Part shown: one piece after another, positions 5,522-40,957 of the stretch
How positions within the stretch are numbered: position 1 is the first letter of the stretch
How the letters are laid out: each line of letters opens with the position of its first letter
Source of the DNA: Candidatus Dormiibacterota bacterium
Lineage (GTDB): Bacteria > Chloroflexota > Dormibacteria > Aeolococcales > Aeolococcaceae
Assembly (NCBI GenBank): GCA_036495095.1
Contig: DASXNK010000196.1
Location: forward strand, 11,472 to 75,471
Direction of reading: 5' to 3'
DNA: 64,000 bases
Notes under the pieces: model-generated
The model's database searches: none
The model's input: the letters and a program-made list of their open reading frames with translations, nothing else
Told to the model about the DNA's origin: nothing
Made by a program: the position numbers and the translations under genes

Positions 5522-5533
5522 CCGGGAGCGGGA

Positions 5534-6599
5534 CATGTCCCCACGCGTCGTGTTCGAGCCGATCGCCGAGGAGATCGAGTGTGAGGAGGACGAGTCGGTC
5601 CTCGACGCCGCCTTCCGTCAGGGACTCAACCTCGCGCACGGCTGCCGTGAGGGCCAGTGCTCGGCGTGCAAGTCGTATCTGCTCCAGGGCGAGGTGTCAC
5701 TGAGGCGGTACTCGAGCTTCGCCCTCTCCGACTCGGAGGAGGCGAACGGCTACACGCTGCTCTGCCGGGCGATGCCCGACGAGGACCTCGTCGTCGAGCT
5801 CCTCCACTACGACCCCGACAACTACCGCCTCGAGAACCCGATCCGCGACGTCCGCACCACGGTCGTCGCGGTCGAGCCGCTCACCCACGACATCCGCCGC
5901 CTCCTCCTCCGGATCGTCGAGCCGGAGGACTTCGCCTTCGTCCCCGGCCAGTACGTCGACGTCCACGTTCCCGGAACCGAGCTGCGGCGCGCGTTCTCCA
6001 TGGCCAACGTGCCCGGCGATGGGCACCTCGAGCTCATCGTCAAGAGGTACCCGGGCGGCCGCTTCTCGGGCATGCTCGACGGCGAGCTCGCGACCGGCGA
6101 CGAGCTGAGCGTCACCGGCCCGTACGGCGCCTTCCACCTGCGTCGCGGCGAGCGGCCGATCCTCCTCGTCGCGGGCGGCTCGGGGATGGCTCCGGTGCTC
6201 GCACTGCTCCGGCAGCTCGCCTCCCAGGGCAGCACCCGCACCACCCGCTTCCTCTATGGGGCGCGCACCCGCCCCGACCTGTTCCACCTCGACCTGGTCG
6301 AGGAGCTGGGCGCGTCGCTCGTCGACTTCCGCTTCACGCCGGTGCTCTCCCACGCGTCCCCGGAGGACGCGTGGGAGGGCGAGCAGGGGCTTGTGCACGA
6401 GGCGGTCGGGCGCTGCCTGGCCTCCGGCGAGCTGGAGGACCCGGAGATCTACATGTGCGGCCCCCCGCCGATGATCGACGCGGTCACCGAGCTCGTCGTC
6501 GACGGCCACGGGATCGCCCCGGACCGCATCCACTTCGACAGCTTCACGACCTCGGCCGACGCCGGGGCCGCCACCGGCAGTGCGCTGCCGCAGCGATGA
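5534..6599 (+). CDS. prmB: Monooxygenase NADH oxidoreductase: N-terminal plant-type [2Fe-2S] ferredoxin plus FAD/NAD-binding ferredoxin-NADP reductase domain
   Basis: ATG at 5534 gives MSPRVVFEPIAEEIECEED... with the 2Fe-2S Cys cluster (C-x4-C-x2-C: GCREGQCSACK), then RxFS (RRAFSMAN) and GGSGMAP flavin/NAD motifs. The longer 5145 ORF in the track is an upstream extension with no support. Confidence 0.8.
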
Positions 6600-22617: not shown

Positions 22618-23679
22618 TCAGCAGGCGCGACCCCAGAGCTGGCCGAGCCAGTCGAGACTGTCCTGTGCCTCCACCTGCCAGGCCTGCCAGCCGTGCGGGC
22701 CGGGGACGATCTGAGTGTGGATCGGGGCCCAGCCCAGCGCCTGCACGGTGGCGATGAACCGCTCGGTGTCGGGGAGGTATTCGGTGTCGTCCGCTCCGCC
22801 GCCGAGGAACAGCGCGCCCCGCTGCGAGGCGGGGACGCCGGCGACGGTGAGCTGCGGGCTGTTTGCGGACGCACTCGCCCCGAAGAGCGCGCCCGGTGCC
22901 GTGAACACCCCGGAGTAGCTCGCCACCCAGCTGAACATCCCGGGGTGGTGGATGGAGATGTTGAGCGCGCCGAAGCCTCCGGAGCTCAATCCGGCGATGC
23001 CGCGGTAGCGGGCCCCGAGTGTGCGGTAGCGGGCATCGATGGCGGGGATGAGCTGGTCGACCAGCCAGGTCTCGTCCTGGTCGCCGACGGCGTCGTTCCC
23101 CCAGTAGTTCCCGTCACCGGTGACTGCGTCGCCATCGGGGTAGACGGCGAGCGTCGGCATCAGCACGTTGGTGGCGGTCAGGCCGTTGAGGATGGTCGGC
23201 AGGGACGATCCCGAGCCCAGCCAGTCCGCACCCGAGCCGGTGGAGCCGTGGAGGAAGTAGACGACCGGGAACCCCTGCGTGGGAAGCGCCGCGTAGGCGC
23301 CGGGAACGTCGACGTAGACGGTGTGGCCGCCGACCGAGAGCTGGTCGATGTGGCCGGCGAGACCGTCGGCGGTCGTGGGGATGCAGCCGGCGGTCGCGGG
23401 CGCCACGGTCGCCGCCGGTGTGGCGATCGTGGGCGCGGCGGTCGGCGCTGATGTCGGCGCCGGGGTGGCGGTGGCCGCAGCTGTGGCGGTCGGCGTCGCG
23501 GTCGTCGCCGGGCCGGCTGTGGCCGCGGGGATGGCCGCCGGTGTGGACGTCCTGGGTGACGGCGTCGTCCCGTGAGCGTGGGCCGCCGCGATCGAACCGA
23601 CGGTTGCGGCGACAGCGGTGGCGAGCGCCGCGACCCCGATGGCCATCGTCCGGCTGCCGTGCGCCCGGCGCATCTCCAC
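22618..23679 (-). CDS. Secreted alpha/beta-hydrolase esterase (esterase-D / putative esterase PF00756-like) with a Pro/Thr/Ala-rich linker
   Basis: Signal peptide (MAIGVAALATAVAATVGSIAAAHA), PT-rich linker, and catalytic nucleophile elbow GLSSGG. Carries YFLHG and D/H downstream residues. Confidence 0.75.
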   Translation of the reverse strand: MEMRRAHGSRTMAIGVAALATAVAATVGSIAAAHAHGTTPSPRTSTPAAIPAATAGPATTATPTATAAATATPAPTSAPTAAPTIATPAATVAPATAGCIPTTADGLAGHIDQLSVGGHTVYVDVPGAYAALPTQGFPVVYFLHGSTGSGADWLGSGSSLPTILNGLTATNVLMPTLAVYPDGDAVTGDGNYWGNDAVGDQDETWLVDQLIPAIDARYRTLGARYRGIAGLSSGGFGALNISIHHPGMFSWVASYSGVFTAPGALFGASASANSPQLTVAGVPASQRGALFLGGGADDTEYLPDTERFIATVQALGWAPIHTQIVPGPHGWQAWQVEAQDSLDWLGQLWGRAC

Positions 23680-23939
23680 GACCTCCTGTCTGGAACCTGA
23701 GGTCAGTCTCGACGTGGCTGTCTTTCAGATCCCTGACCGGACCGATCGCGCGGTCGTGACGGTTGTCGCGGGGCTGTCACGGGCATGGCCCGGGCACCGT
23801 GCATCGCCGTGCCCCGGGCTCGGAAACGTCCGCGACCTCTTACGCACCTCTTGCGGTCCTCTCACCCCTGTCTTGTACGCGGTCGCCGATCGTGCCCCTC
23901 ACGGAAGCTGGATCTGCCGCTCGCGGCGAGGGCGTGCCC

Positions 23940-25931
23940 ATGACGATGCGGGCGAGGGCGGCTGCGCGCGCCCCGGGCACCGCCGAGGCCTCGGCGGCGC
24001 GGACGCTGCCATCGTGGCTGGGGCTGGGCGCGGTTCTTGCGCGCAGCGCCCTGGTCGACGGGATCGGCCTCTGGAACCTGGGATACGGGAACTCGTATTA
24101 CGCCGCCGCCGTCCAGAGCATGCTGACCAGCTGGCACAACCTCCTCTATGCATCCTTCGACGCCGGCGGCTTCGTCAGCATCGACAAGCCGCCGCTCGGC
24201 TTCTGGCTGCAGGCGGCGAGCGCCAGGCTGTTCGGATTCCACGGCATCAGCCTGCTGCTGCCCGAGGCGATCGCCGGGATGGTCTCGGTCGCGCTGCTCC
24301 ACCACCTCGTCGCCCGGGCCTGGGGACGTGCCGCCGGGCTGATCGCGGCCCTCGTGCTCGCCATCAGCCCGATCAGCGTGGTGGCGGCGCGAAGCAACAT
24401 CGTCGACGGCGTGCTGGCGATGGTGCTGCTCCTCGGCGCCGTCGCCGTCACCCGGGCGGCGGAGAGCGGGCGGCTGCGCTGGCTGCTGCTCTGCGCGGTT
24501 CTCGTCGGCCTGGGCTTCAACGTGAAGATGCTCGAGGCCTACCTGGTGGTGCCCGCCTTCGGCCTCGTGTATCTGCTGTCCGCGTCGATCCCGTGGCGGC
24601 GGCGAGCGATGCACCTCGCCGCCGCCACCGTGGTCCTGGTCGGGGTGTCACTGTCATGGGCGGTGGCGGTCGACACCACCCCCGCAGCCCAGCGCCCCTA
24701 CGTCGGCTCCAGCACCGGCGACTCGGAGGTGAACCTCGCGCTCGGCTACAACGGGTGGGGTCGGGTCACCGGAAGCTGGTTCCAGCGTCCCGCGGCCCGG
24801 GCGACGGCTCGCCCGGGTGCGGCGGCGCCCCAGGGCGCGTTCGCCGGGTTCGGGACCGCGGAGGCGGGCGGCACCGGTCCCCTTCGCCTGCTCCGGCAGC
24901 CGCTGGGGAGCCAGACCGGCTGGCTGCTCCCCCTCGCCCTCCTCGGCCTGGTCGCGGCGGCGGTGCGGCAGCGCTGGCGGGAGCCCTTCGACCGGCGACG
25001 GCGGTCGCTGGTCCTCTGGGGGAGCTGGCTTCTCGGCGAGGGGGCGTTCTTCAGCGCTGCCGGCACCCTCCACGCCTACTACCTCACCGTGCTCGAACCG
25101 GCGATCGCGGCGCTCGCCGGGATCGGCCTGACGGTGCTGTGGGGGGAGTACCGGCGCCGGACGCGCTGGGGATGGCTGCTGCCGGCGGCGGTGGTGGCGA
25201 CCGCCGCCGAGGCCGCCTGGGTGCTCGCCGGCTTCCCCGACTGGGCGAGATGGCTGACCCCGCTGGTGCTCGCCACCGCCGCAGCGGCGGTGGTGCTGCT
25301 CGCGGTGTCGCGGTGGCGTGCCGCCGCCCGCCGGCCGCTGGCGGCGCTCGCGGTGCTGGCCGGGGCCACCTCGCTGCTGGCGGCCCCGGTGACCTGGACG
25401 GTGGTCACCATCGGAGAGGCGAGCACCGCCATGCTGCCCACCGCCGGTCCGCCGCCGGCCGCCCAGACGGCGTTCCTGCACTCCCTGACGCGCGGGCGGG
25501 GGCGGGCGACGTTCGGGCAGCAGCCGGACCCGTCGCTGCTGCGCTACCTCGAGACCCACCAGGGCTCGGCGGGCTACCTGGTCGGCGGCCTCGCAGCCAT
25601 GAGCGTGGCGCCGTACATGCTGGCCAGCGACCGGCCCGCGCTCGCCCTGGGTGGCTTCATGGGCCGCGATCGCATCGTCGACCCCGCGCGGCTCGCCGGC
25701 ATGGTGGCGGGCGGCGCGGTGCGGTTCTTCCTGCTGCCCGCCCCGCCCGGCACCCGGCGCGGACCGTTCGGCCCCGGCGGCGGCGGCGTGAACGACGACC
25801 TGATCGCCTGGGTGAGGGCCGAGTGCGCGCCCGTCGATCGCGGCCTCTGGTCGGCCGCCCCCGCGCGGGGCGGCAGGATGGGGTCGGGACAGCAGGTCTA
25901 CGACTGCGCGCCCGCGGCGGGAGCGGGTTGA
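23940..25931 (+). CDS. GT-C fold glycosyltransferase, PMT_2/ArnT-like (GT39/GT83 family): lipid-linked sugar to protein/glycolipid transferase
   Basis: ATG at 23940 (MTMRARAAARAP...). About 11 N-terminal TM helices with an early loop carrying a conserved D (VSIDKPPLGFW), then a large C-terminal extracytoplasmic domain. 663 aa. Confidence 0.65.
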   Translation: MTMRARAAARAPGTAEASAARTLPSWLGLGAVLARSALVDGIGLWNLGYGNSYYAAAVQSMLTSWHNLLYASFDAGGFVSIDKPPLGFWLQAASARLFGFHGISLLLPEAIAGMVSVALLHHLVARAWGRAAGLIAALVLAISPISVVAARSNIVDGVLAMVLLLGAVAVTRAAESGRLRWLLLCAVLVGLGFNVKMLEAYLVVPAFGLVYLLSASIPWRRRAMHLAAATVVLVGVSLSWAVAVDTTPAAQRPYVGSSTGDSEVNLALGYNGWGRVTGSWFQRPAARATARPGAAAPQGAFAGFGTAEAGGTGPLRLLRQPLGSQTGWLLPLALLGLVAAAVRQRWREPFDRRRRSLVLWGSWLLGEGAFFSAAGTLHAYYLTVLEPAIAALAGIGLTVLWGEYRRRTRWGWLLPAAVVATAAEAAWVLAGFPDWARWLTPLVLATAAAAVVLLAVSRWRAAARRPLAALAVLAGATSLLAAPVTWTVVTIGEASTAMLPTAGPPPAAQTAFLHSLTRGRGRATFGQQPDPSLLRYLETHQGSAGYLVGGLAAMSVAPYMLASDRPALALGGFMGRDRIVDPARLAGMVAGGAVRFFLLPAPPGTRRGPFGPGGGGVNDDLIAWVRAECAPVDRGLWSAAPARGGRMGSGQQVYDCAPAAGAG

Positions 25932-25961
25932 GCGCCGAGGGCCGCGTTGATCAGCAGCCGC

Positions 25962-26736
25962 TCACGCGGCGATGTCACGGCGGCGGAGCTCGAGGGCTCC
26001 CACCACGATCAGGCCGATCGCCCACGCGGCGGCGACGATGAGAGCGCTGCCATAGCCGACGTCGGCCGTCCCACCGTGGCCGATGGCGTCGAGCTGGCTT
26101 GCGAAGAGCACGCTGCTCAGCGAGGCGAAGGAGTTGGTGAGCAGGCCCTCGACCGCGAACACGTAGGCCAGTCCCGCGACGATCGCGGGAGCCGGGGAGC
26201 GGAGCAGCACCCCGAGCAGCGCGCCCAGGATCGAGTATCCCAGGGTCGAGAGCACCAGGTCGCCGGCACCGGCGAGGAGGGCCCTGACACCCGCGGGCGT
26301 GGTCCACAGCGAGGTGGAGACCCCGTAGTGCGGTGCGGTCACGAGCGCCGCGGGGTAGGCCACGAAGTAGGCGAGGAGCACCACCGCGGTGATCAGGGCC
26401 GCGATCACCACGCTCTTGCCCGCGAACAGCGTGAGGCGCCGCGGCTGTCGCACCAGGAGGTTGCGGAGCGTCCCGCTGGAGAACTCCGTGGAGAACGCGA
26501 ACGCCGCGAAGCCGAGCCCGACGATGGCGAGGAAGTCCGTGGAGTGCGCCAGGATCGCGTGGATGCCGTCGGCCTGCGAGTACAGCCCGACGTTCGCTTT
26601 GCGCCGGGGCCGGTCGAGCTCGTGGAGACCGACGATCACCGCCGTCACCGAGAGGACGGCTGTGATCGCGGCCGTGGTTCCGAGGATGCCGGCGCGCCGC
26701 ACCTTGAGCCATTCGCTGAGCAGCGCGTGTCTCATC
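25962..26736 (-). CDS. ABC-2 type transporter permease
   Basis: About 258 aa with 6 TM helices (MRHALLSEWLKVRRAGILGTTAAITAVLSV...). Start overlaps the ATPase stop (ATGA). The longer ORF in the track is a fusion across the ATPase frame. Confidence 0.7.
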
Positions 26737-27682
26737 GGTCGTGTCCACCGGTGATCGCCAGGAAGGTGTCCTCGAGGCTCGAGCGGACGTGGGTGATCTC
26801 GTCGAGCGCGATCCCCCCCTCCATCGCCTGGCGGTTCACGGCTGCCGCCCCGCCCTGGAATCCGTCGATACGCACGTGCCCGTCCTGGCGCCGGGCGTGA
26901 TACCCCCTGTCGGTGAGGAGCATGGTGAGCTGCTCGAGCTGGTCGGGCCTCTCGGGCACGAGCACCAGGGTGGTGCGGCGGCGCTCGAGGAGGTCCGCCA
27001 TGGTCCCGTGGAAGAGGAGGTGGCCCTCCTTGAGCACGAGGATCCAGTCGGCGATCTGCTCGAGCTCGCTCAGGATGTGACTGCTGATGAAGATCGTCAC
27101 CCCCTGGTCGCGAAGCCGCCCGAGGAGGCGTCGCATGTCCTGGATGCCCGAGGGGTCGAGCCCGTTGGCGGGCTCGTCGAGGATGAGGAGCTCCGGCCGG
27201 GGAAGAAGCGCGGCGGCGATCCCGAGCCGCTGCCTCATCCCCAGCGAGTACCCGAGCACGCGGTCGTCGGCACGCTCCTGCAGCTCGACGATGGCCAGCA
27301 CCTCGTCGACCCGTGACGCCGGCGTCCCATCGAGCGCGGCGAGGACCTGGAGGTTCCGGCGCCCGCTCAGCCACCAGTAGAAGGCCGGGCCCTCGATGAG
27401 CGCTCCCACCCGCGGCAGGTGGTCGCCCGGCCTGCTGATCGGCGACCCGAGGACCTCCGCCGTGCCGGCCGTCGGCGCGACGAACGACAGCAGCATGCGG
27501 ATGGTCGTGGTCTTGCCGGAGCCGTTGGGACCGACGAACCCCGCGATGACACCGGTGGGGATGTCGAAGTCGATGCCGTCCACCGCAGCCCTGGTCCCGT
27601 AGTGCTTGGTCAGACCGCGTGCACGGATCGCGGGCGGCAGGCCCGCGGATTCGGTGATGGGCGAAGGCATCGGCGTCCCCAT
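26732..27682 (-). CDS. ABC transporter ATP-binding protein (exporter-type, partner of the ABC-2 permease)
   Basis: Walker A GPNGSGKTT, ABC signature LSGGMRQRLGIAAAL, Walker B LLILDEP, and H-loop. 316 aa. Confidence 0.9.
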   Translation of the reverse strand: MGTPMPSPITESAGLPPAIRARGLTKHYGTRAAVDGIDFDIPTGVIAGFVGPNGSGKTTTIRMLLSFVAPTAGTAEVLGSPISRPGDHLPRVGALIEGPAFYWWLSGRRNLQVLAALDGTPASRVDEVLAIVELQERADDRVLGYSLGMRQRLGIAAALLPRPELLILDEPANGLDPSGIQDMRRLLGRLRDQGVTIFISSHILSELEQIADWILVLKEGHLLFHGTMADLLERRRTTLVLVPERPDQLEQLTMLLTDRGYHARRQDGHVRIDGFQGGAAAVNRQAMEGGIALDEITHVRSSLEDTFLAITGGHDR

Positions 27683-27762
27683 GATGCCACCTTCCTCTGA
27701 CGGTTCCCGGTCCGATCGTCCCCCTCGCCGAGAAGACGGCTTTACACGACTTTCCCGGAGCC

Positions 27763-33684
<5,922 letters not shown>

Positions 33685-33944
33685 GCGCGAACCGGCGTGG
33701 GTGGCGGTGTATTACTCGCCAACAGGAGCGATGTCGCAACTCATGCGGGCGGGCGTCCCATCACGGGGGTGCTCCGTCACCCGAACGTCCTCCGCTGTCA
33801 CCTGTCATGGCTAGGATCAGCGATGTCGGCAGCCACTGACAAAGGCAAACCCTTCGCGAGGAGGGGACGCAAAGCCACGGGTCTCACGCAGACAGCCGGG
33901 TTACCAAGGGTCGCCAAAGGAGGCCGACAGCACGGGGTGCTGCC

Positions 33945-34631
33945 ATGGCCGTCCACGGTCTTCTTCTGCTCGCCGTCGCCGCTGCCGGCGTCGCCGGTAC
34001 CGCGACTCTCGTCACCGGCGTCACCGGCCGTGGATCCGCCGGTCACGACGCTGTTCGCGCGATGGACACCCGGGCTCTCGCCCTCGCCAACGCTGACCAC
34101 TTCGCGGCGCCGCCTTCGACGCCCGTTCCCGCGCCGGTGGCGACTCCCGCGCCGGTCATCGTCGCCGCGCAGCAGGCCTCGACGCCCGTCCCGGTCGCCG
34201 CACCGGTGGCGCGGCGTGCGGTGACGCCGGTGCCGGCGGTGTCACCGGAGGTGCTCCACAACTTCCTCACCAGCGGTGATGGGACGCTGCGCACCGGCGT
34301 CGGCGTCTACGGGGACTGCACCGGACGTACCCCGCTGACCAGGGCCGAGGCGGCAATCGACCCCTGCAGCGGAGGACCGACCTACTTCGTCGGTCACAAC
34401 GCCGGTGTCTTCACACCGCTCATGCACATGGCGGTGGGCGCGATCATCGTGTACCACGACGGCGCGGGCGTGGCACACAGCTGGCGGGTGGTGAGCGTCC
34501 GTGACGGCTACGCCTCTGCCGGCGGCGTGCCGGCCCCGACCCAGGCCGACGTCGTGGCCCAGTTCCAGACCTGCGAGACCTACTCGCCCAGCGGGCAGTT
34601 CGATCGGATCCTCGATGTGGTCGAGGCGTGA
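33945..34631 (+). CDS. Secreted hypothetical protein with a Pro/Val/Ala-rich linker and a Cys-containing globular C-terminal domain
   Basis: Signal peptide (MAVHGLLLLAVAAAGVAG), PVPAPVATPAPV repeats, and a C-terminal domain with GDCTGRTPLT...CSGGPTYFVGHN...VYHDG. Confidence 0.5.
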   Translation: MAVHGLLLLAVAAAGVAGTATLVTGVTGRGSAGHDAVRAMDTRALALANADHFAAPPSTPVPAPVATPAPVIVAAQQASTPVPVAAPVARRAVTPVPAVSPEVLHNFLTSGDGTLRTGVGVYGDCTGRTPLTRAEAAIDPCSGGPTYFVGHNAGVFTPLMHMAVGAIIVYHDGAGVAHSWRVVSVRDGYASAGGVPAPTQADVVAQFQTCETYSPSGQFDRILDVVEA

Positions 34632-34934
34632 TCACGCGCCGGATGTGACGGGATGCTGCATATGCTTGACGGCAACGGCCGCAGGGGGCATGCTGGGGGA
34701 GAACCAGTGGCCATACGTCGGAGGGATCGCCAACATGACGCGAACCATCTGGCAGCGCCTGCGCCGTGGGCGAGGCGAGGTCTAGGCCCCGGCCACCAGT
34801 CGCCAGTCGCAGGACTGGGGGACGCGAGTGGAGGGCGATGAGCCTTCCGCGGATGGTCTGGGGCCAAAGTGCACGACATCACGGTATTCGCACCGAACAC
34901 CGACTCATATGAGCCGGGTCGAAAGAGATGTCGA

Positions 34935-34968
34935 ACGAGAAGGGCCGGCCGCACGCCGGCCCTTCTCC
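34935..34968 (+). terminator. Rho-independent-terminator-like hairpin (GGGCCGGCCGCACGCCGGCCC followed by TTCTCCTTTG)
   Basis: 8-bp GC stem with a 5-nt loop, followed by a T-rich tract, inside a ~0.9-kb non-coding gap. Confidence 0.35.
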
Positions 34969-35572
34969 TTTGCATGGCAAGGCGAAACCGGCGCGGGCGC
35001 ACCCGACCCGCGGTTGCCCCCGCAACGACGCGCGTGCGCGGTGAGGCGAGAGTGGAGCGTCGCATGAGAGGGCGTGCGACGCTCCACGAGCGCGGCGACT
35101 GGGAATGGTTCCTACACCGCCACAGTGCCCGGAACATGTCCGAGTTCGCGCTCGCAGGGTAGCGGACGAGGTCTGTGCATGTGTTGTGGATCAGGCTGTG
35201 GAAACCTGCGTGTTTCTCGCCTGGCACGAAGCGAGCCGGCCTGCCTCCGTCGCAAGCTGTCGGTCGACCGACCACGGCCAGGGGGAGGGAGGCCATGGGT
35301 GCCGACCGGCAAGCCCTCTCATACGACTGAAGGACAGTCCGGCTCGGGGTGTTTCGGACTTGCCGTTCCCCCCGCGCGACAGATCGCGGGGGGCGCCACG
35401 GCCCAGCGACGGGCTCCTCTCGGGGCCGGAGCGGGGGGTGCCGCCAACTCAGAGAGTCAGCGGGTCTGCGGCCTGGGCCGGTGATCATAACGGATCTGTA
35501 ATGACGATCGCAAGCGGGGGGACCCGTGTAGCGTTGTCGACCGACCGGTGAGCGCGACAGGAGGTGAGGCCC

Positions 35573-35956
35573 ATGGCAGCTGAGCCACAGGACCCCGATG
35601 TCAGCGTCCTCGACGTCGTCGGACTGGTCGCCGGGATCGCCGTGGACGACGTCGCCGAGATCCTGCTGACCCACGGTGATCGCCCTCTCGACGAGCTGGG
35701 GGAGCGTCTCCGGCAACGCCAGGAGAACCGGGTCGACCTGATCCGCCGCCAGCTGCCGAACCGCGCCGTCCAGGTTCTCTGCGAGGCGGAGGTCGAGGAC
35801 CTGTTCGGACGGTGGATCCGCCGGTTCGGCGACGCCCCGGAGCTGCGCCACGAGCACCTTCCCCGGCTCGCCGAGGAGGTGCGCGGCCTGCGCAACAGCT
35901 ACGTGGCGGATCGGGTCGAGGCGGTCTCCGTGCTCCTGGTGCGACGGGACCCCTGA
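35573..35956 (+). CDS. Hypothetical cytoplasmic protein (127 aa)
   Basis: Strong GC3 periodicity on the + strand. RBS-like GGAGGTGAGG precedes the ATG at 35573. No known motif (…DDVAEILLTHGDRPLDELGERLRQRQENRVDLIRRQL…). Confidence 0.5.
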   Translation: MAAEPQDPDVSVLDVVGLVAGIAVDDVAEILLTHGDRPLDELGERLRQRQENRVDLIRRQLPNRAVQVLCEAEVEDLFGRWIRRFGDAPELRHEHLPRLAEEVRGLRNSYVADRVEAVSVLLVRRDP

Positions 35957-36036
35957 GCCGACGCGGTGGTCGCTGTGAGATCGGGGAGCCGCCGCCCTCC
36001 GCGGGCGGCGGTCCCTCACGACGCCAGCCCGTCGGG

Positions 36037-36516
36037 CTAACCGCCAGGCTTCGGGGACGGGGTCGTGCCGGCGGTCTCCTGCGCCTCACGCTGCGCGCTC
36101 TCCGACTTCTCGTGGGCCGGATCCTCGTTCGGATGGCCGGCCCCGCCGGGCCCGCCGACGTGCGCCCGGCCCGCGGCCTCATCGGCCTCGCGCTGCGCGC
36201 TCTCCCCCTTCTCGTGGGTCGCGTCCTCGTTGGAGGTGGCGGCCCCAGGGGAGGCGGCGGCGGCGGGCGGCGTGGTGACCGCCGAGGGGGCGGTGGTGCC
36301 CGACGGCGCCGTCCCGGTGGACGTGGTCGTGGTGGTGGTCGTGGTGGAGGAGGTCGCGGCGTGCGAGATGATGGCTCCTCCGGCGACACCGCCGGCGATG
36401 AGGCCGAGGGCCGTGGTCGCGGCGGCGGTGCGGCGGTTGAGACCGCCGAACCGGGCCGGTCTCGACGGCTCCTCCGGCTGCGGGGTCTCCTGGTCGTCGT
36501 CGTGCTTCACGGGCAC
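36037..36516 (-). CDS. Small single-TM protein with a Ser/Thr-rich spacer and duplicated acidic motif HPNED-x-HE-x-ESAQREA (paralog A)
   Basis: RFGGLNRR, TM helix (ALGLIAGGVAGGAIISHAA), poly-T/S stretch, and two copies of NEDATHEKGESAQREADE / NEDPAHEKSESAQREAQE. High GC3 on the minus strand. Confidence 0.55.
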   Translation of the reverse strand: MPVKHDDDQETPQPEEPSRPARFGGLNRRTAAATTALGLIAGGVAGGAIISHAATSSTTTTTTTTSTGTAPSGTTAPSAVTTPPAAAASPGAATSNEDATHEKGESAQREADEAAGRAHVGGPGGAGHPNEDPAHEKSESAQREAQETAGTTPSPKPGG

Positions 36517-36656
36517 ATCCTCCTTGCTGGCGCGCGGGCGTGGCGTCTCCAGCCTGGCGCCCGACCCTCAAGGTGGGCTGGCAGTATCCTCAGAATCGGC
36601 TGTGAATCCGTGGGCGGTGCGGGAGCCGGCCGGTGCCGGCCCCCACACGCCGCGAC

Positions 36657-37016
36657 CTACGGAACGGTCGGCATCTGGCCCGCGTTCTCCTGGGCCTCGC
36701 GCGCCGCGCTCTCGCCGGCCTCGTGGGTGGCGTCCTCGTTGGGGTGGAAGGTGCCGCTGGGTGCGGTGGTCGCGGAACTGCCGCTCGCTCCCGGGGTCGC
36801 TGCCGCGGTGCTGCTCGCCGTCGCCGCATGGGAGACGATGTAGCCTCCGAGCATGCCCCCGGTCATCAGGCCGGCCGCGGTGGCGATGGCGGCGCCACGC
36901 CGGCCGAGACCGAAGCGCGACGAACGGTTGGGCTGCGGGTCCTGCGTGGTGCCGGTGATGGGGTCCATGGTGTGTGCCTCCGAGCCTTCTCTGCCGGTGT
37001 CCGCCGGCCATGGCAT
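36657..37016 (-). CDS. Small single-TM protein, paralog B of 36037-36516
   Basis: RFGLGRRG, TM helix (AAGLMTGGMLGGYIVSHAA), and HPNEDATHEAGESAAREAQENAG. Same architecture as the neighbouring gene. Start may be the internal Met at ~36969. Confidence 0.55.
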   Translation of the reverse strand: MPWPADTGREGSEAHTMDPITGTTQDPQPNRSSRFGLGRRGAAIATAAGLMTGGMLGGYIVSHAATASSTAAATPGASGSSATTAPSGTFHPNEDATHEAGESAAREAQENAGQMPTVP

Positions 37017-37319
37017 CAGAGTGCGGTCACACCCTCAGAACCGCCGGTGGACTTCCTGGGAGACCGCTGTGGAACACTCCGCCCGGCGGCGCCGGGACAG
37101 AGGCGGTTGCGCGAACCCGCCGGCGAGGCGGCTCCGGAACGCGCGCAGGCCGTCCTCCGACCCCGCCCGGGGCTCGGATTCCGAGCGCGGGGGGCGGTCC
37201 GCGTGTATAGTGACCCGGCGACGGCCCACCCTGGGTCGACCGATTGCCCGTGCTCTCCTCCGCCTTCTCGAACGGAACGCGCGCGTTGTTCAGAGAGTTC
37301 GGGAAGGCAGGAGCACAAG

Positions 37320-37523
37320 ATGTCCAACGGGACAATCAAGAAGGTCGCATCCGACCGCGGGTTCGGGTTCATCGCCGCTGACGATGGGCAGGAGTACTTC
37401 TTCCATCGGAGCAGCGTCGACAGCACGCTCGACTTCGACCGCCTCAGCGGCGGCGAGGCCGTGACGTTCGAGGTCGAGGCGAGCCCCAAGGGCCCGCGGG
37501 CCGGGCAGGTGCGCGCCGCCTAG
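37320..37523 (+). CDS. cspA: Cold-shock protein (CspA family, S1-like cold-shock domain)
   Basis: MSNGTIKKVASDRGFGFIAADDGQEYFFHRSSV... carries RNP1 (RGFGFI) and RNP2 (FFH) motifs. 67 aa. RBS GGAAGGCAGGAG upstream. Confidence 0.9.
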   Translation: MSNGTIKKVASDRGFGFIAADDGQEYFFHRSSVDSTLDFDRLSGGEAVTFEVEASPKGPRAGQVRAA

Positions 37524-37690
37524 TTCGGCGCACGATCGGTCCGGGGCCGGGGCGGGCTCACCCGCCACGGCCCCAGGGCCGGTCACCGTCACGTCGGATG
37601 CGGCACCGCAACGGTCGTGCCGCGAAGCGGTGGCGCTCCGCCACCTCCCCGCCTTGGACGACGAGGATGAGCCGGTAGATCCGGCTGCTC

Positions 37691-39907
37691 GTGCGAATCC
37701 AGCAGGGGGAGGACGTGGACGAGCGTCAGACCGACACCGCGCGGAGCGCCGTCGAGCGACTGCGCTGGGTGGCGATGGCGCTGGCACTGGCCCGCGTCGG
37801 CCTCGCCCAGCCGCCGCCGGTGTCCAGGACCGCCGCGATCGGCACCGTCCTCGCCATGGCGGCGTACAACGCCATCGTGACGGTGGCCCGCCGCCGCGGC
37901 CGGTGGGCCGCACCGCTGGCGCTGACCGCCCTCGTCCTCGACTTCCTCGCCTGCACCGTCTGGGTGCTGCTCTCCGCCGACGACCCGTCGAGCTCCGCCT
38001 TCGCGATCTACATCTTCGTCGCCATCGAGGCCGCGGCGCTCTACCAGATGCGCGGAGCCGCACTGTTCGCGCCCGGGTTCGCCACCGGGTTCGCGCTGCT
38101 GACCTGGGCCCGGCACCACTACTTCGGCTTCCCCCTCGACAGCGGCAGCCTGGTGTTCCGATCCGGGATCGTCCTGCTGGTCGGCGTCGCCGTCGGCGCC
38201 ATCGCCACCCAGAGCCAGCGGCGGCGCTTCGAGCTGGATCGCCAGGCGGAGGCGCTGCGCGCCTCCGAGCAGCGCTTCCGCACCATCGTCGACACCACCT
38301 CCATCGGCGTCAGCGTCGCCGACGCGCAGGGGCGGCTGATCAGCGCCAACCCCGCCTACCAGGAGCTCGCCGGCTACACCGAGGCCGAGCTGACGACGAT
38401 GCGGATCATCGACTTCACCCATCCCGACGACGCCGGCGCGGACATGCGGCTCGCCCAGGAGGTGGCCAGCGGGCGGCGCAGCCACGGGCAGGTGGAGAAG
38501 CGGTGGATCCGCAAGAACGGAGAGGTGCGCTGGGTGCGCGTCAACGCCTCCCACCTTCCCGCCGCCGGCGGCGCGCCGGGACGGGTGGTCGCCATCGTCG
38601 AGGACATCAGCGAGCGCAGGCGGGCGGAGCGCGAGCTGGCCGAGAGCGCGGGGCGCCTGGCGGCGATCGCCGCCACCGACGTCCTCACCGGCCTCCCCAA
38701 CCGCAGGGAGTTCGAGCGCCTGCTGGCCCTCCCGCAGAGCCGGTCCTTCGCCATCCTGGCCATCGATGTCGACAACCTCAAGGTTGTGAACGACGGGTAC
38801 GGCCACGAGGCCGGGGACGCCGCTCTGCGAGCGATCGCCACCGCCCTGCGGATGGCGGTGCGCGACGGAGACGTGGTCGCCCGGAGCGGCGGTGACGAGT
38901 TTTCGGCGCTCCTCCCCGACACCGCCCCCGAGGCGGCGGTCCAGGTCGGGGACCGGTTGCGCCGAGCGATGCACGGCCTCGCGCTGCCCCACGGGCAGGC
39001 GCGGATCAGCATCGGCTGCGCCACCGGCCCGGCGATGGCGGACGCTGCGACCGTCCTCATCGCCGCCGACGAGGCCCTGTACCGGGCCAAGCGGAACGGG
39101 CGTGACCGGCTCGAGGCGGCGCCCGCGGTCAACGAGACCGGCTCGCAGCAGGTGCGCTGGGAGACGCTGGTGCCCAGCCTGCTGCGCGAGGACGGGATGG
39201 TCTCCGTCTTCCAGCCGATCGTCGGCCTTCGCGACGGGCGGGTGATCGGCTACGAGGCCCTGGGCCGTCCCACCGACGGGCCCCACGACATCGGGGTCGA
39301 GGGGCTGTTCGCGGCCGCCGACCGGATCGGCGAGGGCCGCAGCCTCGACTGGGTCTGCCGCCGCGCCGCGCTCCTGGGGTGCCGCGGCCTGCCCGCCTCG
39401 ACCGCGCTCTTCCTCAACGTGGGGGTGTCGGTGCTCCTCGACCCGCTCCATGCCGTCGACCAGATGCTCCTGCTGCTGCGCTGGGCCGGCCGGGAGCCGG
39501 CTCAGGTGGTCCTGGAGATCACCGAGCGGGAGGCGGTTCGCGACCTCGAGCGGCTGCGGGTGGTGATCATGGAGTACCGCAGCCACGGCTTCCGGTTCGC
39601 CCTCGACGACGTGGGCACCGGCCACTCCACCTTCGAGGTCCTCTCGGTCGCGACGCCGGAGTTCATCAAGATCGCCGGCACCCTGACCCGGCACGCCGGC
39701 GAGGTCGGGCCACGGTCGGCGATCAGGGCGCTGGTGGCCTTCGCCGCCTCGAGCGGAGCGCGGGTGATCGCCGAGGAGGTCGAGAACGACACCACCGCCT
39801 CGCTGATGCGGCACCTCGGAGTGGATCTCGCCCAGGGCTTCATGTGGGGGACCCCGGCGGCGGCGTCGACGTGGCCGGCGGAGGGTGACCTCACCGCCCG
39901 CGGATGA
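37691..39907 (+). CDS. Membrane-anchored PAS-GGDEF-EAL c-di-GMP turnover protein (N-terminal ~5-TM sensor domain)
   Basis: TM helices in the first ~190 aa. PAS (EQRFRTIVDTTSIGVSVADAQGRLISANPAYQELAGYT). GGDEF (RSGGDEFSALLP). EAL (QPI...YEALGRP, DDVGTGHSTF, EEVENDTT). C-terminal ~430 aa closely paralogous to the C-terminus of the 27763-33684 protein. Confidence 0.85.
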   Translation: MRIQQGEDVDERQTDTARSAVERLRWVAMALALARVGLAQPPPVSRTAAIGTVLAMAAYNAIVTVARRRGRWAAPLALTALVLDFLACTVWVLLSADDPSSSAFAIYIFVAIEAAALYQMRGAALFAPGFATGFALLTWARHHYFGFPLDSGSLVFRSGIVLLVGVAVGAIATQSQRRRFELDRQAEALRASEQRFRTIVDTTSIGVSVADAQGRLISANPAYQELAGYTEAELTTMRIIDFTHPDDAGADMRLAQEVASGRRSHGQVEKRWIRKNGEVRWVRVNASHLPAAGGAPGRVVAIVEDISERRRAERELAESAGRLAAIAATDVLTGLPNRREFERLLALPQSRSFAILAIDVDNLKVVNDGYGHEAGDAALRAIATALRMAVRDGDVVARSGGDEFSALLPDTAPEAAVQVGDRLRRAMHGLALPHGQARISIGCATGPAMADAATVLIAADEALYRAKRNGRDRLEAAPAVNETGSQQVRWETLVPSLLREDGMVSVFQPIVGLRDGRVIGYEALGRPTDGPHDIGVEGLFAAADRIGEGRSLDWVCRRAALLGCRGLPASTALFLNVGVSVLLDPLHAVDQMLLLLRWAGREPAQVVLEITEREAVRDLERLRVVIMEYRSHGFRFALDDVGTGHSTFEVLSVATPEFIKIAGTLTRHAGEVGPRSAIRALVAFAASSGARVIAEEVENDTTASLMRHLGVDLAQGFMWGTPAAASTWPAEGDLTARG

Positions 39908-40957
39908 TCACGCCTCGAACGGTCCTCGGTGCCCCTCGCATGTTCTCGGCGGAGACGGCGCGAAGGTCGCGGCCGCGGAGACGGAGGCGCGGCGGGCGGC
40001 GAGCCGGGACACCATCTCCACCACCGCCCAGCAGCCGGCGCCGAGGGCGAGCCCGGCCACAACGTCGCTGACGTAGTGCTCGCCGAGGTCGACGACGGCG
40101 AAGCTGATGGTCAGCGGATAGAGCAGCCAGAGGCGGCTGATCCGGCGGCGCTGTCCGGCCATCATCGTCAGGGCGATGACCATGGGGACGGCGACGTGGA
40201 GCGACGGCATCGCTCCGTTGGGGAAGGGGTCGGCTCCCGAGTACAGCGCGCCGAAGCCGCCGAGGTGGTCGAGGACGGACACCACCACCCGTCCCACCGG
40301 CGGGACCAGGCCATGCTGTGCGGCCAGCCACGGCGGCATCTCGGGGTAGAGGAGGTAGCCGGCGAAACCGAGCGCCATCACCAGGGTGTAGGCGGCGACG
40401 TAGCCCTCGAAGCGGGCACGGTGGCGCCACCAGAGCCAGCCCCCGGCGAGGAGCGGGGCGAGGAAGTGCACGAGGTACTCCCCGACCAGCGGGAGCTGCC
40501 ACCAGACCGCGCCGACCAGGCCGCCGAGGTGCGCCTGGAGCCAGGGCGCCGCGTCGACCCCGAGGACCCGGCGTTCGAGGATGGCGGGGCCGGCGGCGTG
40601 CACGCTGCCTGCCACCAGGGGCTGGAGGGCGCCGAGGTCCTCGAACATCACCGCGATGAACAGGAAGGGGACCCAGTCGCGCACGACCACGCGGAGACGC
40701 GGGACCAGCCCCGCGGCGACGAGCACGAGGAGGATGACGTGCTCGGAGGTGAGGCCGACGCGGTGGGTGGCCACCAGGGCGACGGACGCGACGGCGTAGA
40801 CCGCGATCCCGGCGTTGACCAGCCGGAGCGCCGCCGCCGGTCGCACCCTCGCGACCACGGCGGCCGGGCTCCGACGAGGCTGCGCGCCGGCAGCCGCCCC
40901 CGTGGGGTCGCGGCGCCAGCCGGGCAGGTCGTCGACGCGGGCCGGATGCACCGCCAT
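39908..40957 (-). CDS. PAP2-superfamily membrane phosphatase / phosphotransferase
   Basis: Multi-TM protein with PAP2 motifs (PSLHVA ... SDVVAGLALG). Confidence 0.55.
   Translation of the reverse strand: MAVHPARVDDLPGWRRDPTGAAAGAQPRRSPAAVVARVRPAAALRLVNAGIAVYAVASVALVATHRVGLTSEHVILLVLVAAGLVPRLRVVVRDWVPFLFIAVMFEDLGALQPLVAGSVHAAGPAILERRVLGVDAAPWLQAHLGGLVGAVWWQLPLVGEYLVHFLAPLLAGGWLWWRHRARFEGYVAAYTLVMALGFAGYLLYPEMPPWLAAQHGLVPPVGRVVVSVLDHLGGFGALYSGADPFPNGAMPSLHVAVPMVIALTMMAGQRRRISRLWLLYPLTISFAVVDLGEHYVSDVVAGLALGAGCWAVVEMVSRLAARRASVSAAATFAPSPPRTCEGHRGPFEA

What the first reader, a model, noticed from the sequence alone, without database searches (positions are those of the whole stretch)
37691..39907. 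Duplicated c-di-GMP module: C-terminus of a membrane PAS-GGDEF-EAL protein is a close paralog of the megaprotein C-terminus
Long stretches are near-identical between the two proteins:

- LTGLPNRREFERLLA vs LTGLGNRRFFDRFLA
- DQMLLLLRWAGREPAQVVLEITEREAVRDLERLRV...GFRFALDDVGTGHSTFEVLS...PEFIKIAG vs DQMLLLLRWSGCSPQDVVLEITEREAVHDLQRLRD...GFRFALDDLGEGHSTLAVLS...PEFVKLSG

This implies a recent duplication of a PAS-GGDEF-EAL cassette onto two different N-terminal sensor platforms (5-TM membrane domain vs kinase-STAND), about 4 kb apart. The membrane copy keeps the canonical E-A-L triad; the giant copy has E-G-L. That pattern suggests an active enzyme paired with a receptor or degenerate partner.
Basis: seen in the sequence. 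Interest (0 to 1): 0.55.

Follow-up and report, generated by a model that had tools for sequence, protein, structure and literature searches.

The report
Shared c-di-GMP output module, anciently shuffled
Two neighbouring signalling genes carry related copies of a c-di-GMP-making and c-di-GMP-breaking module, but this is an old, widely shuffled module of this soil-bacterial lineage, not a recent local duplication, and both copies look equally functional.

Summary
The C-termini of the 1973-aa giant (27763-33684) and the 738-aa membrane protein (37691-39907) align at 50% identity over 548 aa (E 1e-152). The generic GGDEF-EAL background is about 30-35%.

The interpretation mostly fails:
- The shared unit is GGDEF-EAL only (59% identity). 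The PAS domains are 25% identical.
- The duplication is not recent. Four-fold sites are near saturation, and the two modules are never sisters in a tree.
- Both belong to a large family in Dormibacterota/Chloroflexi-labelled MAGs (at least 236 protein clusters, several copies per genome), attached to many different sensor domains.
- EGL occurs in 6 of 47 family members, and every catalytic residue is kept in both copies.
- The adjacency is not conserved. The closest genome lacks the giant at this locus.

New result: the giant's kinase-STAND-TPR-GAF-PAS scaffold is shared with Actinomycetota-labelled proteins (about 52% identity). Its GGDEF-EAL module is of the local family type (34% to theirs). 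Two shared indels place the junction in the PAS-GGDEF linker, so the output module was replaced.

A c-di-GMP-I-type riboswitch (33835-33909) lies between the two genes, upstream of a sortase-like gene.

Overall this is ordinary domain shuffling, with a well-documented module swap.

The parts
27763..33684 (+). Giant signalling protein (1973 aa): Ser/Thr kinase, AAA_16 STAND NTPase, TPR/helical region, GAF, PAS, GGDEF, EAL
   Evidence: ORF. Pfam hits are all above the gathering score for Pkinase, AAA_16, PAS_4, GGDEF and EAL. Kinase motifs VIIK, HRDIKPAN, DFG, SPE and Walker B VVILDD are present. The P-loop AESGGGKT was read from the sequence. Full-length homologues are 45-61% identical over 97% of the length.
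27940..32421 (+). Scaffold part of the giant (kinase through PAS, aa 60-1553), inherited together with the actinobacterial-type giants
   Evidence: 49-56% identity to 17 actinobacterial-type giants. Every region from Pkinase to PAS is 42-66% identical.
32422..33681 (+). Giant's linker plus GGDEF (32467-32907) and EAL (32989-33663) module, of the Dormibacterota family type; this is the replaced output module
   Evidence: 31-37% identity to the actinobacterial giants' modules, against 50-59% to the family and 63.6% to P0122. The family clade has 100% bootstrap support. A 7-aa linker insertion and a 6-aa GGDEF deletion are shared with the family.
33835..33909 (+). c-di-GMP-I-type riboswitch aptamer (best Rfam model RF03167)
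   Evidence: 73.5 bits against a gathering score of 59, E 1.3e-17, full-length match.
33945..34631 (+). Sortase-like secreted or membrane-anchored protein (228 aa), 36 nt downstream of the riboswitch
   Evidence: Weak Pfam Sortase hit (E 2.4e-5, 24.5 bits, below the gathering score of 26.6). His (VGHN), Cys (QTC) and Arg at sortase-like spacing were read from the sequence. The same ORF is called in JGI contig L086.
27696..34638 (.). 6.9 kb segment (giant + riboswitch + sortase-like gene) that is present here but absent at this locus in the closest genome
   Evidence: blastn of L007 against the window: L007 1715-3460 = window 25949-27695, and L007 3532-4863 = window 34639-35969. Boundary alignment.
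37320..37523 (+). Cold-shock domain gene, the conserved upstream neighbour of the membrane gene
   Evidence: Pfam CSD, E 2e-15. The same adjacency is seen in L001, L002 and L003, L007 and L086.
37691..39907 (+). Membrane PAS-GGDEF-EAL protein (738 aa): hydrophobic N-terminal region (about 37763-38215), PAS (38273-38623), GGDEF (38669-39109), EAL (39179-39856)
   Evidence: ORF, Pfam, hydropathy. An identical protein, P0001, and an 88% identical full-length orthologue, P0002, exist. The best solved relatives are PA0575 (5m3c) at E 2.6e-45 and RbdA/PA0861 (5xgb) at E 1.2e-41.

Best explanation
The two genes are separate members of a large GGDEF-EAL 'output module' family. The family is specific to a group of high-GC soil bacteria whose MAGs are labelled Candidatus Dormibacterota or Chloroflexi.

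Evolution
- The module has been joined to many different sensor N-termini over a long time: TM-PAS, GAF, GAF-PAS, CHASE-PAS, REC-PAS and kinase-STAND.
- The membrane protein and the giant carry copies from different deep branches of the family. Their proximity is not ancestral.
- The giant has a composite history. Its kinase-STAND-TPR-GAF-PAS scaffold belongs to a family that is widespread in Actinomycetota-labelled MAGs. In those proteins the scaffold carries a canonical GGDEF-EAL, or alternatively a histidine-kinase output.
- In the common ancestor of the window giant and P0122, the output was replaced by the local family module. The junction lies in the helical linker just after the PAS domain ('...RDVTERR|RAE...').

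Function (inferred)
- Both proteins are sensor-controlled c-di-GMP turnover enzymes.
- Both have an intact diguanylate cyclase site (GGDEF, the substrate and metal residues, and the RxxD inhibitory site).
- Both have an EAL phosphodiesterase with all metal-binding and catalytic residues, but a family-specific non-canonical loop 6.
- They differ in what they sense. One has a membrane-embedded domain plus PAS. The other has a cytoplasmic kinase/STAND NTPase/TPR/GAF/PAS integrator.
- Both feed the c-di-GMP pool. That pool is read at least by the riboswitch at 33835-33909, which controls a sortase-like gene.
For: Shown:
- Similarity well above background.
- The PAS domains are not shared.
- NJ tree of 109 modules: the family clade containing both window modules and P0122 has 100/100 support; giant+P0122 are sisters in 96/100; giant+membrane are sisters in 0/100.
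- The module/scaffold identity ratio is 0.87-1.18 in 136 pairs of actinobacterial-type giants. It is 0.56-0.74 for the window giant against them, and 1.04 against P0122.
- Two indels at the junction are shared only with the family.
- Derived residues are shared by both window modules and the 47 family members sampled (V in 44/47, Kx(A/S) in 47/47, final T in 47/47), and are absent from all 28 actinobacterial-giant modules and nearly all 34 generic modules: loop 6 DDVG(E/T)GH(S)T, Kx(A/S) in place of KxD, and loss of the 'AE' Glu.
- Family size and variety of architectures, with at least 5-6 copies per MAG.
- Scaffold homologues with HisKA/HATPase outputs exist.
- Near-saturated synonymous sites and no long identical nucleotide runs.
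- The giant is absent at this locus in L007.
- Catalytic residues are intact in both copies.
- Riboswitch.

Inferred:
- Enzymatic activities and their regulation by the sensors.
- That the riboswitch reads c-di-GMP produced by these enzymes.
Against: - The direction of transfer is not proven. The giant+P0122 branch is deep in the family, so the giant could be an early donor of the module rather than a recipient.
- The tree is neighbour-joining on 393 columns, not maximum likelihood.
- Most database proteins lack taxonomy. 11 of the 67 full-length GTDB loci carry non-Dormibacterota/Chloroflexi labels (Angelobacter, Solibacter, Actinomycetes), so 'lineage-specific' rests on MAG labels.
- EAL activity is uncertain. 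Loop 6 departs from DFG(T/A)GYSS (PMC2994820), and under the scheme in PMC12900916 such domains are classed as 'uncertain'.
- No experimental data exist for any family member.
Confidence: 0.8

Rival explanations
1. A recent local duplication copied a PAS-GGDEF-EAL cassette between the two genes, and the EGL copy is becoming a degenerate receptor paired with the active EAL copy.
For: The two genes are 4 kb apart on the same strand and share 59% identity in GGDEF-EAL. Of the non-giant family members listed in the giant-module search, the membrane protein's close orthologue P0002 scores best against the giant's module, but by a margin of only about 1% (58% against 55-57%).
Against: - PAS identity is 24.8%.
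- Four-fold sites are 0.56 identical, against 0.45 by chance.
- The pair were sisters in 0 of 100 bootstraps.
- The membrane module has relatives at 76-90% identity on other proteins.
- The giant is absent at this locus in the closest genome.
- All catalytic residues are kept in both copies, and EGL is found in 6 of 47 family members.
Confidence: 0.03
2. Reverse direction. The family module arose inside an ancestral Dormibacterota giant by in-place divergence, and was later copied from the giant onto the many other sensor proteins.
For: The giant+P0122 branch is deep within the family. The giant's module is roughly equidistant (50-59%) from all other members.
Against: - In the tree, the family is not sister to the actinobacterial giants' modules. 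Its nearest outgroups are unrelated proteins P0076 and P0093.
- Giants with this module are rare: three distinct proteins found (the window giant, P0121 and P0122), and none among the 79 GTDB loci. The family itself has at least 236 clusters.
- In-place divergence would need two indels and several active-site-proximal changes to arise while the adjacent PAS stayed about 50% identical to its actinobacterial counterparts.
Confidence: 0.1
3. No swap at all. The giant's module is the orthologue of the actinobacterial giants' modules, and it resembles the local family through accelerated or convergent evolution, or through compositional bias in a 73% GC genome.
For: All sequences involved are high-GC. 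Composition can inflate similarity.
Against: - The actinobacterial-type giants are the giant's closest full-length homologues (45-50% identity over 97% of the length), yet they show a module/scaffold identity ratio near 1 among themselves.
- Shared indels and position-specific derived residues are not what composition produces.
- The family clade has 100% bootstrap support.
Confidence: 0.03

Closest known systems
RbdA (PA0861) and PA0575 of Pseudomonas aeruginosa: membrane-anchored PAS-GGDEF-EAL proteins with solved GGDEF-EAL structures (5xgb, 5m3c)
   Same: Same domain order as the membrane protein (TM region, PAS, GGDEF, EAL). They are the best sequence matches among solved structures (E 1.2e-41 and 2.6e-45), with alignment through both catalytic domains.
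   Different: Only distantly related in sequence. They have the canonical loop 6 DDFGTGYSS (PA0575) and KID, where the window proteins have DDVGTGHST/DDLGEGHST and KIA/KLS. The N-terminal membrane domain of the window protein matches no Pfam or NCBIfam model.
MSDGC-1 (M. smegmatis) and MtbDGC (M. tuberculosis): GAF-GGDEF-EAL proteins; MSDGC-1 is reported as bifunctional (PMC2994820)
   Same: A tandem GGDEF-EAL in which both active sites are intact, controlled by an N-terminal small-molecule-binding domain. This is the precedent for one polypeptide both making and degrading c-di-GMP.
   Different: Canonical loop 6 (DFGTGYSA in MtbDGC, PMC2994820). A single GAF sensor rather than a TM-PAS or kinase-STAND platform. 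No close sequence relationship was tested here.
Kinase-AAA_16(STAND)-TPR-GAF-PAS giants of Actinomycetota-labelled MAGs, carrying GGDEF-EAL or HisKA-HATPase outputs (uncharacterised; the HstK-type Ser/Thr-plus-His kinases of cyanobacteria are the nearest named analogue, from memory)
   Same: The window giant shares the whole scaffold at about 52% identity and the same domain order.
   Different: Its GGDEF-EAL is not the orthologue of theirs: 34% identity, different indels and a different loop 6.
c-di-GMP-I (GEMM-I) riboswitches that control surface or adhesion genes, e.g. the Bc2 riboswitch upstream of the collagen adhesion protein in Bacillus thuringiensis (PMC4933901)
   Same: An aptamer of the same Rfam clan in a 5' leader, upstream of a cell-surface-related gene.
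   Different: The best-scoring model is the GGC variant, whose ligand I could not confirm from the held literature. The downstream gene here is sortase-like. In three related MAGs it is TadE-like.

Membership tests
GGDEF diguanylate cyclase domain (PF00990) | Profile match above the curated threshold | tested here: met
   122.4 bits (giant) and 124.8 bits (membrane protein), against a gathering score of 23.8.
GGDEF diguanylate cyclase domain (PF00990) | GG(D/E)EF active-site motif; the metal and substrate residues (PleD D327, N335, D344 equivalents; numbering from memory); the RxxD inhibitory site five residues upstream | tested here: met
   Membrane protein: D359, N367, D376, R391-D394, G400-F404. 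Giant: D1601, N1609, D1618, R1633-D1636, G1642-F1646. All are invariant in the 47 family members.
GGDEF diguanylate cyclase domain (PF00990) | Cyclase activity in vitro | not testable with these tools
   Needs purified protein.
EAL c-di-GMP phosphodiesterase domain (PF00563) | Profile match above the curated threshold | tested here: met
   124.8 bits (giant) and 139 bits (membrane protein), against a gathering score of 31.3.
EAL c-di-GMP phosphodiesterase domain (PF00563) | Metal-binding and catalytic residues: Glu of EAL, Arg (+4), Asn, ExxE, DD, Lys, the catalytic-base Glu of E(G)VE, and Gln | tested here: met
   Membrane protein: E522, R526, N576, E609, E612, D639, D640, K660, E695, E698, Q715. 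Giant: E1767, R1771, N1821, E1854, E1857, D1884, D1885, K1905, E1940, E1943, Q1960 (aligned to 5m3c). The roles of the EAL Glu and the EGVE base are as stated in PMC12900916.
Class I (canonical, predicted-active) EAL domains | Conserved loop 6 DFG(T/A)GYSS (PMC2994820; class scheme in PMC12900916) | tested here: not met
   DVGTGHST (membrane protein) and DLGEGHST (giant). In the family, F is replaced by V in 44/47, Y by H in 32/47, and the final S by T in 47/47. KxD is replaced by Kx(A/S) in 47/47. Both window copies deviate equally, so phosphodiesterase activity is 'uncertain' for both.
Recent local (segmental) duplicate pair | The two copies are each other's nearest relatives | tested here: not met
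   Sisters in 0 of 100 bootstraps. Closer relatives exist for each copy.
Recent local (segmental) duplicate pair | Low synonymous divergence, or long identical DNA tracts | tested here: not met
   Identity at four-fold sites is 0.56, against 0.45 by chance. The longest identical run is 20 nt. NG86 gives dN 0.35 and dS 0.54, which is unreliable at GC3 of about 97%.
Recent local (segmental) duplicate pair | The adjacency is shared by relatives | tested here: not met
   The giant segment is absent in L007. L001 and L007 carry a different family member there instead. P0122's contig has no membrane-gene orthologue within the 6.3 kb downstream or 10 kb upstream that the locus covers.
Dormibacterota-type GGDEF-EAL module family (defined here) | Placement in the clade, the shared indels (7-aa longer linker in a subset, 6-aa shorter GGDEF helix region), and the DDVGxGHxT / Kx(A/S) signatures | tested here: met
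   Both window modules meet these criteria.
Kinase-STAND-TPR-GAF-PAS-GGDEF-EAL giants (actinobacterial type) | Full-length collinear homology of the scaffold | tested here: met
   45-50% identity over 97% of the length to more than 100 proteins. Every scaffold region is 42-66% identical.
Kinase-STAND-TPR-GAF-PAS-GGDEF-EAL giants (actinobacterial type) | The output module is orthologous with the rest of the protein | tested here: not met
   Module/scaffold identity ratio of 0.56-0.74, against 0.87-1.18 within that family.
c-di-GMP-I riboswitch clan (CL00126) | Covariance-model score above the gathering threshold, in a 5' leader on the same strand as the downstream gene | tested here: met
   RF03167, 73.5 bits against 59. 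The aptamer ends 36 nt before the ATG at 33945. Ligand binding is not testable here.

The most novel reading that the evidence does not exclude
The Dormibacterota-type GGDEF-EAL module, with its invariant non-canonical loop 6 (DDVGxGHxT) and its Kx(A/S), is a functionally distinct EAL subclass. It might differ in dimerisation or regulation, or in substrate or product. It would be the preferred 'plug-in' output of this lineage, strongly enough that it displaced the canonical output of a kinase-STAND giant acquired from Actinomycetota. On this reading, the 6.9 kb giant + riboswitch + sortase-like segment is a self-contained c-di-GMP circuit that is gained and lost as a unit and controls cell-surface display.
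Probability: 0.12. Interest if true: 0.55.

Novelty: new member of a known kind. Interest (0 to 1): 0.3.

Why it matters
The finding as given has little wider importance. Paralogous GGDEF-EAL modules on different sensor domains are the norm in environmental bacteria (census in PMC1183210).

Three things are worth keeping:
- A clean, quantified example of output-module replacement in a roughly 2000-aa multi-sensor protein. The junction is mapped to the PAS-GGDEF linker, which is useful for understanding, and for engineering, how sensor and output modules are recombined.
- A large uncharacterised EAL subfamily with a fixed, unusual loop 6, in a phylum with no cultured c-di-GMP biology. My search of the held library found no paper containing both 'Dormibacterota' and 'c-di-GMP'.
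- A c-di-GMP riboswitch next to these enzymes, which points to surface-anchoring (sortase-like, TadE-like) genes as outputs in this lineage.

Tried and rejected
NG86 gave dN 0.35 and dS 0.54 for GGDEF-EAL, and YN00 failed. With about 97% G/C at third positions, the chance identity is already 0.45-0.47, so dS is saturated and the ratio is meaningless.
- Recent gene conversion between the two copies. No window longer than 30 nt is near-identical, and the longest exact run is 20 nt.
- Synteny of the giant. P0121's contig (L005) shares only the giant gene with the window. P0122's contig (L004) shares one ThiS/BNR-like gene pair about 7 kb upstream, in inverted orientation. That is a weak hint that the giant's neighbourhood is old and that L007 lost the segment.
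- Repeats or mobile-element signatures at the indel borders. The boundary alignment showed no obvious target duplication, and the window has no tRNA. I ran no dedicated repeat or integrase/transposase search.
- Pfam and NCBIfam for the membrane protein's N-terminal 190 aa, the two small ORFs at 36037-36516 and 36657-37016, and ORF 23618-26041. No significant hits.
- Riboswitch expression platform. The MFE fold pairs the GGAGG with the start-codon region, but it is no more stable than shuffled sequence (z = -0.5). No terminator was found before the ORF.
- Ligand of the Rfam 'GGC' variant. It was not found in the held papers, and Rao et al. 2008 is not held.
- Exact look-up of the giant. It is not on record, although L086 carries its last 865 aa.
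- Structure prediction was not run. It would not decide activity or evolutionary history.
Full report
**1. What is at the coordinates**

The window is 70-77% GC throughout. ORF 37691..39907 (+) encodes a 738-aa protein:
- a hydrophobic N-terminal region: four strong Kyte-Doolittle segments between residues 47 and 174, plus two weaker ones that I judged by eye;
- PAS (195-311), GGDEF (327-473) and EAL (497-722).

ORF 27763..33684 (+) encodes a 1973-aa protein with Pkinase (60-307), AAA_16 (346-519), a TPR/helical region, GAF (1304-1429), PAS (1438-1553), GGDEF (1569-1715) and EAL (1743-1967). The kinase motifs and Walker B are intact (VIIK, HRDIKPAN, DFG, SPE, VVILDD). The P-loop AESGGGKT was read from the sequence. 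The long antisense ORFs listed over both genes are the usual high-GC artefacts. Pfam hits and homologues support the + strand.

**2.

- BLASTP of the two proteins gives 50% identity over 548 aa, E 1e-152.
- A tblastn of the module against the window finds only these two copies.
- The relevant background is 27-37%. That is what both modules show against about 70 unrelated PAS-GGDEF-EAL proteins and against the modules of about 90 homologous giants.

**3. The shared unit is GGDEF-EAL, not PAS-GGDEF-EAL**

Identity by domain is PAS 24.8%, GGDEF 61.9% and EAL 58.0%. The giant's PAS is instead 46-53% identical to the PAS of other kinase-STAND giants.

**4. It is not a recent duplication, and the two are not each other's closest relatives**

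- Third codon positions are about 97% G/C, so chance identity there is already 0.47.
- At four-fold sites in conserved residues, identity is 0.56 against 0.45 by chance.
- The longest identical nucleotide run is 20 nt.
- NG86 values (dN 0.35, dS 0.54) are therefore not interpretable.
- The membrane module is 76-90% identical to modules on other proteins that have GAF/PAS N-termini (P0002-P0008). The giant's module is closest to that of another giant, P0122, at 63.6%.
- In a neighbour-joining tree of 109 modules (393 columns, 100 bootstraps), the clade holding both window modules, P0122 and 44 other proteins has 100% support. Giant+P0122 are sisters in 96 replicates. Giant+membrane are never sisters.

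**5. The family**

- A search with the membrane protein found about 47 proteins at 45-88% identity, then a sharp fall to about 33%.
- A search with the giant's module found 236 clusters at E <= 1e-60. Their N-termini include none/TM, PAS, GAF, GAF-PAS, REC-PAS and others. CHASE-PAS-GAF forms appear.
- Names, where given, are Candidatus Dormibacteraeota/Dormibacteria or Chloroflexota.
- A scan of one genome per GTDB species with a family alignment (A1) found 199 encoded relatives.
- Of the 67 best full-length loci, 33 are labelled Dormibacterota (counting Ca. Amunia, which I place in that phylum from memory), 23 Chloroflexi/ota/ia, and 11 otherwise (Angelobacter, Solibacter, Actinomycetes). There are at least 5-6 copies in several single MAGs.
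- The closest genome is MAG MFD04580.bin.1.38, labelled uncultured Chloroflexia. Its membrane module is 92% identical (L007).

**6. The EAL/EGL idea**

I aligned 47 family modules, 28 actinobacterial-giant modules and 34 generic modules and tabulated the functional positions. Solved structures were used as a guide.

Both window modules keep:
- GGDEF;
- the three further cyclase residues;
- the RxxD inhibitory site;
- in EAL, the Glu, Arg, Asn, ExxE, DD, Lys, both Glu of E(G)VE, and QG.

The Glu of the EAL motif binds the metal, and the first Glu of EGVE is the catalytic base (PMC12900916). The middle residue is G in 6 of 47 family members.

What is unusual is shared by both copies and by the family as a whole:
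- loop 6 is DDVG(E/T)GH(S)T instead of DDFGTGYSS;
- KxD is Kx(A/S) in 47/47;
- a Glu that is invariant in the 28 actinobacterial-giant modules and present in 33 of 34 generic modules ('AE') is lost in most of the family.

Loop 6 DFG(T/A)GYSS is considered important for activity. In MtbDGC the loop-6 Phe (F513) and the Asp two residues after the conserved Lys (D534) form a main-chain hydrogen bond (PMC2994820). It is notable that exactly these two positions changed together in this family. Under the scheme of PMC12900916, both domains fall in the 'uncertain' class. Nothing distinguishes an 'active' copy from a 'degenerate' one.

**7. The giant has a swapped output module**

- A search with the full giant found well over 100 proteins of 1.9-2.1 kaa with the same architecture, at 45-50% identity over 97% of the length. 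Where named, they are Acidimicrobiales, Actinomycetota, Frankiales or Mycobacteriales.
- Other homologues keep the scaffold but end in HisKA-HATPase (with or without REC/Hpt), or in GGDEF only.
- Against 17 such giants, the window giant's scaffold (aa 60-1553) is 49-56% identical, but its module is only 31-37% identical. The ratio is 0.56-0.74.
- Among 136 pairs of those giants, the ratio is 0.87-1.18. At comparable scaffold divergence their modules never fall below 48.5%.
- P0122 behaves like the window giant, and the two give a ratio of 1.04 with each other.
- At the junction, the giant follows the actinobacterial giants through '...LLDDPGVGGIVLNTRDVTER'. It then shares two indels with family members: a 7-residue longer linker (shared with the membrane protein and P0003), and a 6-residue shorter segment before the 'IDxDxLK' strand (shared with all family members shown).
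- So the output module was replaced, in the linker helix after PAS, before the window lineage and the P0122 lineage split.
- Giants with this module are rare: the window (also seen in JGI contig L086), P0121 (L005/L006) and P0122 (L004). None of the 79 GTDB loci has the scaffold upstream of the module.

**8. Genomic context**

- L007 is about 92% identical to the window in DNA over the flanks. However, window 27696-34638 is replaced there by about 70 bp. This segment holds the giant, an intergenic riboswitch and a 228-aa ORF.
- Window 23782-25948 is also absent in L007, and 35971-36608 is inverted.
- L007 and L001 carry a third, more distant family member (44-45% identity to the window modules) between these points. 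It lies in opposite orientations in the two, and the window lacks it.
- The conserved pair is the cold-shock gene (37320-37523) followed by the membrane gene. Downstream come PAP2 and an LPG_synthase_TM gene.
- P0122's contig shares one ThiS/BNR-like gene pair with the window (72% aa, inverted, about 7 kb from the giant in both). This hints that the giant's neighbourhood is old and that L007 lost it.
- An independent JGI contig (L086) reproduces window 31071-40329 exactly at the level of the proteins looked up.

**9. A c-di-GMP reader between the two genes**

- The only Rfam hit in the window is RF03167 (c-di-GMP-I-GGC) at 33835-33909 (+): 73.5 bits against 59, E 1.3e-17.
- It lies 150 nt after the giant's stop and 36 nt before ORF 33945-34631.
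- That ORF has an N-terminal hydrophobic segment, a Pro/Ala-rich linker and a weak Sortase match (24.5 bits, just under the gathering score). His, Cys (QTC) and Arg sit at sortase-like spacing.
- In the alignment, the nucleotide after 'GACGC' is A, where the variant model has G.
- From my memory of the Vc2 structure, this is position 47. A there, with the G of 'GGCAAACC' and the C of 'UUACC', is the canonical c-di-GMP-binding triad. This reading was not verified in the held literature.
- The same model hits three related MAG loci (L017, L055, L063; 65.7-67.4 bits), each immediately before a 181-aa ORF that I read as TadE-like from its N-terminal motif (not confirmed by a profile search), and each 3-6 kb from a family GGDEF-EAL gene.

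**10. Mechanism**

*Shown:*
- domain content;
- intact catalytic residues;
- membership of the family;
- the module swap;
- the riboswitch.

*Inferred:*
- Each protein converts its own input into a change in c-di-GMP synthesis or hydrolysis through the same type of GGDEF-EAL output. The membrane protein's input comes through its membrane domain and PAS. The giant's comes through kinase/STAND NTPase oligomerisation, TPR, GAF and PAS.
- c-di-GMP then acts on, among other targets, the leader RNA of the sortase-like gene.
- Which activity dominates in either protein cannot be read from sequence.

**11. Verdict**

This is ordinary shuffling of a c-di-GMP output module in an uncultured soil lineage. 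It comes with a well-supported case of output replacement in a conserved giant sensor, and an uncharacterised EAL loop-6 variant family.

Noticed in passing
window 33835-33909 (+), with ORF 33945-34631 (+): c-di-GMP-I-type riboswitch aptamer (RF03167, 73.5 bits, E 1.3e-17), 36 nt upstream of a 228-aa sortase-like ORF and directly downstream of the giant. At the variant-defining position the sequence has the canonical A rather than the model's G.
   Followed up: partly
L017 13742-13816, L055 13953-14027, L063 11558-11632: The same riboswitch model hits three related MAGs (65.7-67.4 bits). Each hit lies just upstream of a conserved 181-aa ORF that I read as TadE-like from its N-terminal motif (pilus-assembly type; not confirmed by a profile search), 3-6 kb from a family GGDEF-EAL gene.
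   Followed up: partly
window 27696-34638 versus L007 3461-3531: A 6.9 kb presence/absence difference from the closest genome (about 92% nt identity). It contains exactly the giant, the riboswitch and the sortase-like gene. No tRNA is present in the window. The boundary alignment showed no obvious repeat, but I ran no dedicated repeat or mobile-element search.
   Followed up: partly
window 23782-25948: A second segment (about 2.2 kb) absent from L007. It lies inside a long ORF (23618-26041, 807 aa) that has no Pfam or NCBIfam match.
   Followed up: no
window 35971-36608; ORFs 36037-36516 (-) and 36657-37016 (-): This segment is inverted relative to L007. It and its neighbour encode two paralogous small proteins, each with an N-terminal hydrophobic stretch and repeated 'NED(A/P)xHExxESxxREAxExAG' motifs. 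They match no family.
   Followed up: no
window 34639-35969: About 1.3 kb conserved at 92% with L007, with lower GC (about 0.70). It has no convincing ORF, Pfam hit or Rfam hit.
   Followed up: no
L007 about 4999-6483 (+); L001 18-1277 (-): Relatives carry a third family PAS-GGDEF-EAL gene (the two copies are 85% identical to each other and 44-45% identical to the window modules) between the ABC-transporter side and the CSD gene. It lies in opposite orientations in the two relatives and is missing from the window.
   Followed up: partly
L005 (ends at 10800) and L006 (ends at 4891): Two independent contigs carrying the P0121 giant both break at the same point. That point is about 35 residues into the GGDEF domain, at the family's most conserved DNA stretch, as expected if the repeated module breaks short-read assemblies.
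   Followed up: no
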